From assembly GCA_021202555.1 (NCBI GenBank), contig JAJQCT010000029.1, positions 66,287 through 130,286 on the forward strand: a DNA stretch of 64,000 bases, read 5' to 3'. The notes beneath the pieces were generated by a model, which was not told the origin of the DNA, searched no databases, and was given only the letters and a program-made list of their open reading frames with translations. This document shows positions 47,546 to 47,761 of the stretch, piece after piece (position 1 is the stretch's first letter; every line of letters starts with the position of its first letter). This stretch comes from Clostridiales bacterium. Lineage in GTDB: Bacteria; Bacillota; Clostridia; Oscillospirales; CAG-272. The position numbers and the translations under genes were made by a program.

Positions 47546-47761
47546 GGGGTACGGGGCAAAGCCCCGACTTAAGCCCCTTTTTGAAAAAAGGGGCTTAAGA
47601 ATCTCCAAAAACTTTCTATCGCTCCCATGCTCTGCATGGTCGCTTAAAAATATCTTTTTAGCTCGCCATGTGAAACATGGTGAGCGATAAAAAGTTTTTG
47701 AAACATCCAAAGAAACTTTTTTCAAAAAGTTTCTTTGGTGGGGTACGGGGCAAAGCCCCGA
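47546..47761. repeat. Direct-repeat-bounded composite palindromic element
   Basis: Perfect 22-nt direct repeats GGGGTACGGGGCAAAGCCCCGA at 47546-47567 and 47740-47761. Inside are 32-nt palindromes at 47568-47599 and 47707-47738, and a 19-bp long-range helix (47606-47624 with 47682-47700, one mismatch) enclosing three hairpins. Confidence 0.85.

What the first reader, a model, noticed from the sequence alone, without database searches (positions are those of the whole stretch)
47546..47761. 216-bp element bounded by perfect 22-nt direct repeats and built almost entirely of palindromes
GGGGTACGGGGCAAAGCCCCGA, itself a CGGGG-CAAA-CCCCG hairpin, occurs twice as a direct repeat at 47546 and 47740. 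Just inside each repeat is a 32-nt near-perfect palindrome with the same architecture, 10 unique bp followed by TTTTT-NN-AAAAA. These are CTTAAGCCCCTTTTTGAAAAAAGGGGCTTAAG and CCAAAGAAACTTTTTTCAAAAAGTTTCTTTGG. Read as 13-6-13, they resemble tyrosine-recombinase core sites, but the two are unrelated to each other. Between them, CAAAAACTTTCTATCGCTC pairs with GAGCGATAAAAAGTTTTTG (19 bp, one mismatch). This helix encloses three hairpins: CCATG-CTCTG-CATGG, GCTTAAAAATATCTTTTTAGC and TCGCCATG-TGAAA-CATGGTGA. Together they form a four-way-junction-like fold of about 95 nt. The nested symmetry (repeat, palindrome, structured core, palindrome, repeat) is not explained by any flanking gene. The element lies in the divergent region between the ECF sigma operon and the F1 modules. 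Candidate explanations are a small structured RNA insulated by hairpins, a miniature non-autonomous mobile or integrative remnant with att-like repeats, or a recombination or inversion cassette. I cannot discriminate between them from the sequence.
Basis: seen in the sequence. Interest (0 to 1): 0.6.

Follow-up and report, generated by a model that had tools for sequence, protein, structure and literature searches.

The report
Polymorphic cluster of dispersed hairpin repeats
The 216-bp element is real, but it is not a one-off cassette: it is an inverted pair of a short hairpin repeat module that recurs in the intergenic DNA of many uncultured gut Clostridia, and it is gained, lost and rearranged between close relatives.

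Summary
A covariance model built only from other genomes finds exactly two copies of a 52-nt module (conserved leader AAAGTTTTTGAGGATT plus a covarying perfect palindrome) in the 64-kb window. They lie leader-to-leader on opposite strands at 47567-47618 and 47688-47739. Each is capped by the hairpin GGGGTA-CGGGGC-NNN-GCCCCG-A, a motif found in more than 119 loci of Clostridia, Streptomyces, Desulfovibrionaceae and other groups. Fifteen orthologous loci show three alleles with nearly identical flanks. One is a bare hairpin. One is a short form fusing the left half of palindrome A to the right half of B. One is the long form. In one long allele the left cap is inverted, as in other genomes. The perfect 22-nt direct repeat is therefore a lineage-specific derived state, not an att site or target duplication. 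There is no Rfam hit, no nearby recombinase or transposase, and no orientation bias relative to genes. The best reading is a REP/BIME-like cluster of tagged palindromic repeats that is reshaped through hairpin intermediates. What spreads the modules is unknown. I rate it a new variant of a known kind, of moderate interest.

The parts
47546..47567 (+). Left cap: GGGGTA tag plus the CGGGGC-AAA-GCCCCG hairpin plus A, in direct orientation relative to the right cap.
   Evidence: The motif GGGGTACGGGGCNNNGCCCCGA occurs in more than 119 genome loci. In orthologues this position holds a different hairpin, which in L137 reads as the inverted 22-mer (GGGGCTTCGCCCCAAACCCCGA), and short alleles carry GGGACTTCGCCCCAAGTCCCGA.
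47567..47618 (-). Left 52-nt module on the minus strand: leader AGAAAGTTTTTGGAGATT followed by palindrome A.
   Evidence: Model R1, built from 13 modules of other genomes, scores 63.6 bits, E = 2.8e-12, matching the full model length.
47568..47599 (.). Palindrome A, CTTAAGCCCC-TTTTTGAAAAAA-GGGGCTTAAG, a perfect 15+2+15.
   Evidence: repeat I4. Its 2-nt centre is flipped (TTTTTTCAAAAA) in L137. Its left half is fused to the right half of palindrome B in the short alleles.
47606..47700 (+). Spacer or core of the doublet. The outer helix 47606-47624 / 47682-47700 is formed by the two facing leaders. Inner hairpins lie at 47625-47639, 47642-47662 and 47663-47683.
   Evidence: It has no match outside orthologous loci and none in JGI metagenomes. 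There are 7 variable sites among 3 long alleles, 2 of them compensatory pairs, not significant. It is deleted in the short alleles.
47688..47739 (+). Right 52-nt module: leader AAAAAGTTTTTGAAACAT followed by palindrome B.
   Evidence: R1 scores 60.0 bits, E = 1.9e-11. By blastn it is 96% identical over 53 nt to L055, and 86-92% identical to L051, L040 and L024 in unrelated contexts.
47707..47738 (.). Palindrome B, CCAAAGAAAC-TTTTTTCAAAAA-GTTTCTTTGG, a perfect 15+2+15.
   Evidence: repeat I5. The same stem subtype occurs in L055 (CTAAAGAAAC) and in L040/L051 (CAAGAGAAAC).
47740..47761 (+). Right cap: GGGGTA tag plus the CGGGGC-AAA-GCCCCG hairpin plus A. It sits immediately upstream of the predicted promoter of the GH43-methyltransferase gene.
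   Evidence: The hairpin part is kept in every allele seen, including the bare-hairpin allele GAATATTCGGGGCAAAGCCCCGATATTGC.
47538..47545 (.). Left flank GAATATTC. Together with GATATT at 47760-47765 it extends the stem of the single hairpin in the bare allele, so it marks the boundaries of the variable segment.
   Evidence: Direct comparison of the window with L124, L127 and L128.

Best explanation
The element is a local cluster of REP/BIME-like 'tagged palindromic repeats'. Two copies of a dispersed 52-nt module sit leader-to-leader on opposite strands around a 69-nt spacer that is itself hairpin-rich. Each module has an unpaired conserved leader, AAAGTTTTTGARGNTT, and a perfect palindrome with a variable stem and a conserved TTTTT-NN-AAAAA centre. 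Each outer end carries a GGGGTA-tagged GC hairpin.

It is non-coding DNA parked in the permissive gap upstream of two divergent promoters.

Shown: the module family exists in many Clostridia genomes, with discrete stem subtypes shared between non-orthologous sites. The doublet geometry recurs. The window's site is polymorphic.

Inferred: the modules act and spread as single-stranded DNA hairpins. Rearrangement goes through those hairpins during replication, by slippage between the identical palindrome centres, by intra-hairpin template switching that flips loops, and by conversion between caps. New copies arise either through such template switching or through a trans-acting single-strand (HUH/Y1-type) enzyme that reads 'tag plus hairpin'. 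Any local function is at most structural, for example cruciform or supercoil buffering or insulation between the divergent promoters.

The perfect 22-nt direct repeat is a recent, lineage-specific conversion of the left cap to the sequence of the right cap.
For: **Module identity.** R1, trained without the window, finds only these two full-length hits in 64 kb, on opposite strands (E = 2.8e-12 and 1.9e-11).

**Family structure.** In the 13-sequence training alignment, 12 of 13 stem pairs show compensatory changes while the leader is conserved. Stems are almost entirely Watson-Crick: 245 Watson-Crick pairs, 11 G-T and 22 other. That fits maintenance of a DNA palindrome.

**Dispersed and multi-copy.**
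- One 8-kb locus, L055, holds three copies.
- The 22-mer motif lies on 8 contigs of one Ruminococcus MAG and on 7 contigs of MAG OH_HBB_87.
- Stem subtypes recur in different genomes. An orthologous site differs in subtype between L049 and L072 although the upstream coding sequence printed for the two is nearly identical.

**Recurring geometry.** Leader-to-leader doublets with 65-114-nt gaps occur in L009, L013, L039 and L063. The outer caps are inverted in L039, L070, L103 and in the orthologue L137.

**Polymorphism at this site in 15 orthologous loci.**
- Bare hairpin: L124, L127, L128.
- Short hybrid of palindromes A and B: L121, L123, L125, L126, L132-L134. A second junction type occurs in L130 and L131.
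- Long form: the window (also recovered as Logan contig L001/L129), L135/L136 and L137.
- The palindrome A centre is flipped in L137, and the left cap varies while the flanks are about 99-100% identical.

**Context.**
- Both orientations relative to genes are common: ++ 6, -- 6, -+ 5, +- 4 (manual reading).
- Rfam gives no hit here or at 18 other loci.
- The motif is rare in viral contigs, 2 hits, and the element is absent from plasmid and phage collections.
- The neighbourhood is housekeeping genes, with no recombinase or transposase.
- Strong single-strand DNA fold, z = -12.

**Precedent from the literature.** Tag-plus-palindrome repeats, and TIR families beginning GGGGWSAS, are associated with Y1 transposases (PMC3733652; PMC6006769).
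Against: - No copy-number census of the source genome was possible. Within the 64-kb window the modules occur only at this locus.
- No mobilising enzyme was found. tblastn with Y1 transposase sequences that I recalled from memory found nothing in about 1 Mb of fetched loci.
- The literature reports RAYT-class enzymes as sparse outside Proteobacteria, Bacteroidetes and Cyanobacteria, and reports only IS200-type Y1 enzymes in Actinobacteria (PMC6006769).
- Copies within one genome differ by compensatory stem changes rather than being near-identical (L040 vs L055). That is unlike REPIN populations and is also what a structured RNA family would show.
- The direction of change at this site is not resolved. 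The flank trees conflict, and the bare allele appears in two backgrounds.
- The cross-phylum sharing of the 22-mer could be convergence on a very stable GC hairpin rather than common descent.
- The proposed structural or insulating role is untested.
Confidence: 0.6

Rival explanations
1. The 216-bp unit is itself a transposable, IS200/IS605-derived miniature element (PATE-like). The two identical 22-mers are left-end and right-end subterminal hairpins presented on the same strand to a Y1 transposase (TnpA). The element would excise and insert as single-stranded DNA without a target duplication.
For: - Identical tag-plus-hairpin ends in direct orientation on one strand, which is the IS200/IS605 arrangement from established knowledge.
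- A clean bare allele exists in relatives.
- Wobble-type changes in the core keep pairing on the plus strand only.
- IS200-type Y1 transposases are strongly represented in Clostridia (PMC6006769).
Against: - The direct arrangement is not conserved. In L137 and in the short alleles the left end is a different hairpin, which in L137 reads as the inverted 22-mer. Doublets in other genomes have inverted caps or no left cap.
- The core, which should travel with the element, has no second copy in the window, in about 1 Mb of fetched loci or in JGI metagenomes.
- No Y1 transposase was detected near any copy.
- The halves occur independently elsewhere as single modules.
Confidence: 0.1
2. The element, or the 52-nt module, encodes a structured RNA: a small RNA or a cis-acting leader. 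The conserved single-stranded leader and covarying stems would reflect RNA-level selection.
For: - Conserved linkers with compensatory stem changes across loci and between paralogues in one genome (L040 vs L055).
- Two compensatory pairs, and several G-U-compatible changes on the plus strand, among three long alleles.
- Very low folding energy.
Against: - No Rfam family matches at E up to 10 apart from spurious microRNA and small-RNA hits.
- No sigma-70-like promoter feeds the element and no terminator follows it. It lies upstream of both divergent promoters.
- Modules occur in both orientations relative to flanking genes.
- Stems are near-perfect Watson-Crick palindromes with few G-U pairs.
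- The core is freely deleted in most relatives.
- Covariation among the three long alleles is not significant: 118 of 500 shuffles reach the observed score.
Confidence: 0.12
3. The palindromes are protein-binding DNA sites, such as operators or nucleoid-protein or IHF-like sites, that regulate or insulate the divergent ECF sigma and GH43-methyltransferase promoters.
For: - The position is exactly between two divergent promoter regions.
- The right cap abuts a TTGCAT-18-(TG)nTATAAT promoter, my own reading.
- The right-cap hairpin is kept in all alleles.
- The palindromes are perfect double-stranded DNA palindromes with an A/T-tract centre.
Against: - Palindrome arms differ completely between copies, whereas a shared regulator would need conserved arms.
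- Everything except the right-cap hairpin is dispensable in close relatives.
- Family members sit in all kinds of intergenic context, including after stop codons.
Confidence: 0.08
4. It is a site-specific recombination or inversion cassette. The 32-nt palindromes are recombinase core sites and the 22-mers are att-like repeats.
For: - Nested symmetry and direct repeats.
- The 2-nt centre of palindrome A is inverted between the window and L137.
Against: - No recombinase or integrase lies in 31.6-55 kb.
- The geometry is 15-2-15, not 13-6-13.
- Arms are variable and the centre is conserved across the family.
- A centre flip in a perfect palindrome is what intra-hairpin template switching produces, from established knowledge of quasipalindrome mutagenesis.
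- No allele shows the core inverted.
Confidence: 0.03

Closest known systems
REP / BIME elements and REPIN doublets (Enterobacteria, Pseudomonas), with their Y1 transposases (RAYTs)
   Same: - Short extragenic palindromes preceded by a conserved unpaired tag.
- Many dispersed copies.
- Often paired in inverted orientation or clustered.
- Fold as single-stranded hairpins.
- Presence/absence variation between strains.
   Different: - The tag is GGGGTA, or the 17-nt leader AAAGTTTTTGARGNTT, not GTAG or CGTC.
- The two palindromes of a doublet are unrelated in stem sequence, whereas REPIN arms are near-identical.
- Copies differ by compensatory stem changes.
- The host lineage (Clostridia) is not known for RAYTs, and no RAYT was found.
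TIR repeat families with the GGGGWSAS motif that flank TIRYT genes ('TIRtrons'; PMC3733652, and subclass 2.1 of PMC6006769)
   Same: - Repeats begin with GGGG(A/T).
- Some are self-complementary.
- They occur as singles, dimers or clusters.
- They occur in species that lack classical REPs.
   Different: The window's tag GGGGTACG matches only 6 of 8 consensus positions. Related units elsewhere, such as GGGGTCAA, match 7 of 8. No TIRYT gene was seen, so the link is a lead from the literature, not a test.
BOX elements of Streptococcus pneumoniae (boxA-boxB-boxC), and similar modular intergenic mosaics such as BIMEs and Correia elements
   Same: Intergenic composites are assembled from a small vocabulary of hairpin-forming modules. 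Module number and order vary between loci and strains.
   Different: There is no sequence similarity, the modules are different, and here the stems vary while the loops and linkers are conserved.
IS200/IS605-derived miniature elements (PATEs)
   Same: Subterminal hairpins lie on one strand at both ends, there is no target duplication, and the logic is single-strand DNA processing.
   Different: The direct-hairpin arrangement is not conserved among alleles. The body of the element is single-copy as far as could be tested.

Membership tests
REP / BIME | Short (20-40 bp) extragenic palindrome with a conserved unpaired tag at one end | tested here: met
   The 22-mer is GGGGTA plus a 6-bp stem with a 3-nt loop. 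The 52-nt module is a 17-nt leader plus a 32-nt palindrome. All copies inspected lie between genes.
REP / BIME | Tag belongs to the GTAG or CGTC super-families | tested here: not met
   The tags are GGGGTA and AAAGTTTTTGARGNTT. PMC3733652 does not list Clostridia, Streptomyces or Desulfovibrio among REP hosts.
REP / BIME | High copy number within one genome | tested here: inconclusive
   Other genomes carry many copies: 3 modules in 8 kb of L055, and the 22-mer on 8 and 7 contigs of two MAGs. For the window's own genome only 64 kb could be read, and that holds one locus.
REP / BIME | A RAYT (Y1 HUH transposase) gene flanked by the repeats | not testable with these tools
   Whole genomes could not be scanned. 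tblastn with Y1 sequences recalled from memory found nothing in about 1 Mb of loci.
REPIN | Two near-identical REPs in inverted orientation that pair with each other into one long hairpin | tested here: not met
   The modules are inverted, but their palindromes are unrelated (CTTAAGCCCC vs CCAAAGAAAC). The 62-nt arms are only 74% complementary (repeat I1). The caps are direct in the window.
MITE with target-site duplication | Terminal inverted repeats, and a direct repeat created from the target on insertion | tested here: not met
   The bare allele is GAATATTCGGGGCAAAGCCCCGATATT, which lacks GGGGTA. The left 'repeat' is a different hairpin in L137 and in the short alleles.
IS200/IS605-type miniature element (PATE) | Conserved left and right subterminal hairpins on the same strand; multiple full-length copies; tnpA in the genome | tested here: inconclusive
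   Direct hairpins are present in the window and in L135/L136 but not in L137. No second copy of the core was found. Presence of tnpA could not be tested.
Tyrosine-recombinase core or att site | Conserved inverted binding arms around a 6-8-bp spacer, with a cognate recombinase gene nearby | tested here: not met
   The geometry is 15-2-15. Arms vary and the centre is conserved across the family. No recombinase lies in 31.6-55 kb.
Any Rfam RNA family | Match at or near the family's gathering score | tested here: not met
   The best hits are 24-26 bits against gathering scores of 45-440. No family overlaps the motif in 18 other loci.

The most novel reading that the evidence does not exclude
The 52-nt 'leader plus covarying palindrome' module and the GGGGT-tagged GC hairpin are the recognition units of an undescribed single-strand nucleic-acid system. 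That system would be shared by Clostridia, Desulfovibrionaceae, Synergistaceae, Streptomyces and others. It could be a new repeat/transposase partnership outside the GTAG/CGTC REP world, or a structured single-stranded DNA or RNA element with a host function. In that case the window's doublet would be one of its natural composite forms.
Probability: 0.2. Interest if true: 0.65.

Novelty: new variant of a known kind. Interest (0 to 1): 0.4.

Why it matters
REP-type repeats are well studied in Proteobacteria but barely described in the uncultured Clostridia that dominate gut metagenomes.

This locus gives three things.
- **A family definition.** There is a compact, searchable description of such a family: a 52-nt covariance model plus a 22-nt tagged hairpin.
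- **A natural allelic series.** The bare, short and long forms, with loop flips and cap inversion, show how palindrome clusters are built and eroded.
- **A practical warning.** Short Logan contigs of relatives end inside a neighbouring palindrome, and palindrome-rich DNA of this kind can also seed spurious ORFs.

If the cross-phylum GGGGT-tagged hairpin reflects a shared enzyme rather than convergence, it would extend the repeat/transposase 'domesticated replicator' picture to new phyla.

Tried and rejected
- **Rfam.** A scan of 46800-48600 at E up to 10 gave only spurious microRNA and small-RNA hits. Rfam at gathering thresholds on 18 related loci gave only tRNAs and a lysine riboswitch elsewhere.
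- **tRNA and tmRNA.** ARAGORN found none in the window.
- **Plasmids and phages.** blastn of the element against both collections gave no match.
- **Literal sequence strings in the paper library.** No hits.
- **Literature on REPs, MITEs, Clostridia and Streptomyces.** No description of this family was found. There were useful leads on TIRtrons and on the distribution of Y1 enzymes.
- **Metagenome scan with a 38-nt core pattern.** No hits.
- **Viral scan with the 22-mer motif.** 2 hits only.
- **tblastn with IS608 TnpA and E. coli RAYT against all fetched loci.** Nothing better than E = 1.5. These query sequences were recalled from memory and may contain errors.
- **Covariation test on the three long alleles.** 2 compensatory pairs, not significant.
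- **Phylogeny of the flanks, to polarise gain versus loss.** The two flanks disagree, so the direction stays open.
- **Coding hypothesis (96-aa minus-strand ORF 47531-47821).** Rejected by inference. The 139-bp deletion and the bare alleles destroy the ORF, and loop lengths across the family vary out of frame.
- **Integron attC, CodY box, ECF promoter and intrinsic-terminator readings of the modules.** Considered from memory and dropped, because the consensus features (R'/R'' boxes, the central G of the CodY box, a CGT -10 element, a 3' T-run) are absent from the sequence.
- **An early inference withdrawn.** I first took 22-mer hits near locus ends as sitting at contig ends. Loci are fixed 8-kb blocks, so this holds only for some Ruminococcus contigs.
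Full report
**1.

The 22-mer GGGGTACGGGGCAAAGCCCCGA occurs at 47546 and 47740 and nowhere else in the window, even with 3 mismatches allowed (0 expected). Two perfect 15+2+15 palindromes lie just inside the two copies, at 47568-47599 and 47707-47738. Between them, 47606-47624 pairs with 47682-47700 and encloses three small hairpins.

Energy is -70.4 kcal/mol and z = -12.0. As RNA both strands fold at z = -11 and -13.6. The isolated core prefers a nested long hairpin that re-pairs its four CATG segments.

The sequence is identical in a separately assembled Logan contig, L001 from run SRR15221332. I could not tell whether that run is the window's own sample. Near-identical long forms in three further assemblies from other samples rule out an assembly artefact.

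**2. Setting**

The element lies in a 643-bp gap between two divergent genes. One is an ECF-type sigma factor gene (46893-47447, minus strand). The other encodes a GH43 glycosidase fused to a methyltransferase domain (48091-50157, plus strand). Genes from 31.6 to 55 kb are housekeeping: an aminoacyl-tRNA synthetase, an aminotransferase, type IV pilus components, alanine racemase, bactofilins and a melibiase. None is a recombinase or transposase.

Directly after the right 22-mer I read TTGCAT (47764-47769), an 18-nt spacer, then TGtTATAAT (47785-47793). This is probably the promoter of the plus-strand gene, by inference. The consensus scan finds no promoter that would transcribe the element and no terminator after it. 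NCBI names for the sigma factor place the organism among uncultured Clostridia / Bacillota MAGs.

**3. The 22-mer is a widespread motif, not a private repeat**

The tally by record title is:

| Group | Loci |
|---|---|
| Clostridia (Eubacteriales, Oscillospiraceae, Lachnospiraceae, Ruminococcus and others) | 43 |
| Streptomyces | 43 |
| Other Actinobacteria | 3 |
| Desulfovibrionaceae | 5 |
| Proteobacterial MAG OH_HBB_87 | 7 |
| Synergistaceae | 4 |
| Bacteroidales | 3 |
| Magnetococcus | 2 |
| Other phyla | 9 |

One Ruminococcus MAG carries the motif on 8 contigs. In almost every case the motif follows another hairpin that is itself preceded by a G-rich tag. In Desulfovibrionaceae the unit is TTGAGGGGGAT-TCGGGGGGAATCATTCCCCCCGA-C-GGGGTA-hairpin. 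In Clostridia it is AAAGTTTTTGAGGATT-palindrome-T-GGGGTA-hairpin. The motif is nearly absent from 2.9 million viral contigs, with 2 hits.

**4. The two halves of the element are copies of one dispersed module**

I aligned 13 Clostridia modules from other genomes, leader plus palindrome without the 22-mer and without the window. The leader is conserved and unpaired, and 12 of 13 stem pairs show compensatory double changes.

The covariance model built from this alignment (R1) finds exactly two full-length matches in the 64-kb window:
- 47567-47618 on the minus strand, 63.6 bits, E = 2.8e-12.
- 47688-47739 on the plus strand, 60.0 bits, E = 1.9e-11.

In 99 fetched loci, R1 finds further copies that were not in the training set. 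These include a third copy within 8 kb of L055. They also include leader-to-leader inverted partners at gaps of 65-114 nt in L009, L013, L039 and L063, against 69 nt in the window.

The right half of the window element is 96% identical over 53 nt to a module in L055, an unrelated genome and context. The 95-nt core has no match outside orthologous loci and none in JGI metagenomes.

Stem subtypes are discrete and are shared between genomes. Examples are GGTCAAGCC in L028, L070, L072 and L099, GCGTCGC in L016 and L049, and CTTAAGGAAC in L024, L055 and L095. L049 and L072 have nearly identical upstream coding sequence as printed, yet carry different subtypes at the same site. That means replacement, not point mutation.

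Stems are almost purely Watson-Crick: 245 Watson-Crick pairs, 11 G-T and 22 other.

**5. The site is polymorphic in close relatives**

Fifteen orthologous loci from ten MAGs and five Logan runs have shared intergenic segments that are about 99-100% identical. They fall into three states.
- **Bare** (L124, L127, L128): GAATATTC-GGGGCAAAGCCCCGA-TATTGC. This is a single hairpin without the GGGGTA tag.
- **Short** (L121, L123, L125, L126, L132, L133, L134): a different left hairpin (GGGACTTCGCCCCAAGTCCCGA and variants), then CTTAAGCCCC-TTTTTGAAAAAA-GTTTCTTTGG, then the right 22-mer. The left arm of palindrome A is fused to the right arm of palindrome B, and 139 bp are missing. L130 and L131 have the same fusion with the other centre, TTTTTTCAAAAA. 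That is either a second crossover or a flipped centre.
- **Long** (the window, recovered again as Logan contig L001/L129, plus L135/L136 and L137).

A non-palindromic hybrid is most simply explained as a deletion between the two identical centres. On that reasoning the long form is ancestral to the short form.

In L137 the left cap reads TCGGGGCTTCGCCCCAAACCCC. That is essentially the reverse complement of the 22-mer (TCGGGGCTTTGCCCCGTACCCC). It gives the inverted caps also seen in L039, L070 and L103. In L137 the centre of palindrome A is also flipped. In L135 the left cap is direct but has one mismatch.

The perfect direct repeat is therefore confined to the window's lineage. It is best explained by conversion of the left cap to the right cap's sequence.

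Trees of the two flanks disagree, and the bare allele appears in two backgrounds. Whether 'bare' is the ancestral empty site or a recurrent precise loss remains open. Either way the element is gained or lost cleanly.

**6. The core**

Among the three long alleles, 7 of 95 core positions vary.
- Two pairs change on both sides: T-A to C-G in the outer helix, and T-A to T-G to C-G at the base of the third hairpin.
- Two changes give G-T pairs on the plus strand only.
- One change breaks a pair.

With three sequences this is not significant, since 118 of 500 shuffles reach the observed score. The core is deleted in most relatives, so it is dispensable.

**7. What it most likely is**

The grammar is an unpaired tag plus a palindrome. 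Copies are intergenic and dispersed, occur in either orientation relative to genes, are often paired in inverted orientation, and vary between strains. That is the grammar of REP/BIME-type repeats.

It differs from the described families in four ways:
- The tags differ (GGGGTA and a 17-nt leader, not GTAG or CGTC; PMC3733652).
- The two palindromes of a doublet are unrelated.
- Copies diverge by compensatory stem changes.
- The hosts are Clostridia.

The observed rearrangements are deletion between identical palindrome centres, centre flips, and cap inversion or conversion. These are what hairpin-mediated slippage and template switching produce (established knowledge of quasipalindrome mutagenesis). 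I infer that the modules act as single-stranded DNA hairpins.

How new copies arise is not shown. A Y1/HUH enzyme that reads 'tag plus hairpin' is the obvious candidate. TIR repeats that begin GGGGWSAS do flank RAYT-like 'TIRYT' genes in other phyla (PMC3733652; PMC6006769). Against this, RAYT-class enzymes are reported as sparse in Firmicutes and absent from Actinobacteria. I also found none near any copy (using query sequences recalled from memory). Spread by template switching or recombination alone, as suggested for the transposase-less CGTC repeats, is equally possible.

A local role as spacer, cruciform former or insulator between the divergent promoters is conceivable but untested.

**8. 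Rivals**

- **A whole-unit IS200/IS605-type miniature element.** This would explain direct hairpin ends on one strand. However, that arrangement is not conserved among alleles, and the body of the element is single-copy as far as tested.
- **A structured RNA.** This would explain conserved linkers with covarying stems. However, there is no Rfam match, no promoter and no orientation bias, G-U pairs are few, and the core is dispensable.
- **Operator sites.** These would need conserved arms, which are not seen.
- **A recombinase cassette.** There is no recombinase gene, no conserved arms and no inverted-core allele.

**9. Verdict**

I rate it a new variant of a known kind, REP/BIME-like tagged palindromic repeats, with moderate interest.

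The more novel possibility is that the GGGGT-tagged hairpin and the 52-nt module mark an undescribed cross-phylum single-strand system. The evidence does not exclude this, and whole-genome censuses could test it.

Noticed in passing
A -10 box is followed by A(A/G)ACATTGA(A/G), a variable perfect hairpin, and then CAAGT..G.TGAATAT-loop-ATATTCACGG..ACAGC. The TTCACG of the palindrome serves as the -35 of the next promoter. Copy number and sequence upstream of the GH43-methyltransferase gene differ between close relatives. In L121, L125 and L133 a different copy is flanked by a duplicated ribosome-binding site and start codon. There is no credible Rfam hit.
   Followed up: partly
window 53828-53932: About five tandem copies of a 21-nt unit, ACGATTCCGCTGCGCGGAAAA. 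Each unit contains a small TTCCGC/GCGGAA hairpin. The array lies in the gap upstream of a PPIase-domain gene at 53978-55054.
   Followed up: no
L055 146-696, 2627-3177, 6642-7189 (also L040, L051, L024): One Eubacteriales MAG carries long intergenic mosaics built from a fixed vocabulary. The order is stop codons in all three frames (GTGACTAGTGACTAG), a terminator, the 52-nt module, the 22-mer, two further covarying hairpins, and a conserved CTATAGAGATT..CCTGCGGG segment. Linkers are conserved and stems differ by compensatory changes between copies.
   Followed up: partly
L030, L033, L036, L074, L083, L102, L105, L120 (Ruminococcus sp. RGIG6795): A composite repeat of more than 300 nt follows stop codons on at least 8 contigs of one MAG. 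It contains tandem GGGGT-tagged hairpins at a period of about 27 nt, ending in the 22-mer and a terminator-like hairpin.
   Followed up: partly
L011, L054, L087, L100 (about 5 nt after the 22-mer): The same conserved sequence (…GTGC..GGCGTATAGCCGGGCGCGATGCTTGCCCT…) abuts the 22-mer hairpin in four loci from three or more genomes. In L054 it is the 3' end of a gene for an AAA_25 / DnaB-like protein typical of integrative elements. It may be a mobile element that uses the hairpin as its insertion site.
   Followed up: partly
orthologous loci L121-L137 versus window 45447-48690: Across these MAGs the shared intergenic segments are about 99-100% identical, by eye. The adjacent sigma / anti-sigma / DUF3221 operon is only 90-95% identical, and the two flanks give conflicting trees. 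This suggests recombination or strong constraint on the promoter region.
   Followed up: no
L126, L128, L132 (Logan contigs): Three short-read contigs of relatives all end inside the neighbouring palindrome TTGAGAAATGGGCACAGCCCATTTCTCAA (window 47800-47828). This suggests that perfect palindromes break these assemblies.
   Followed up: no
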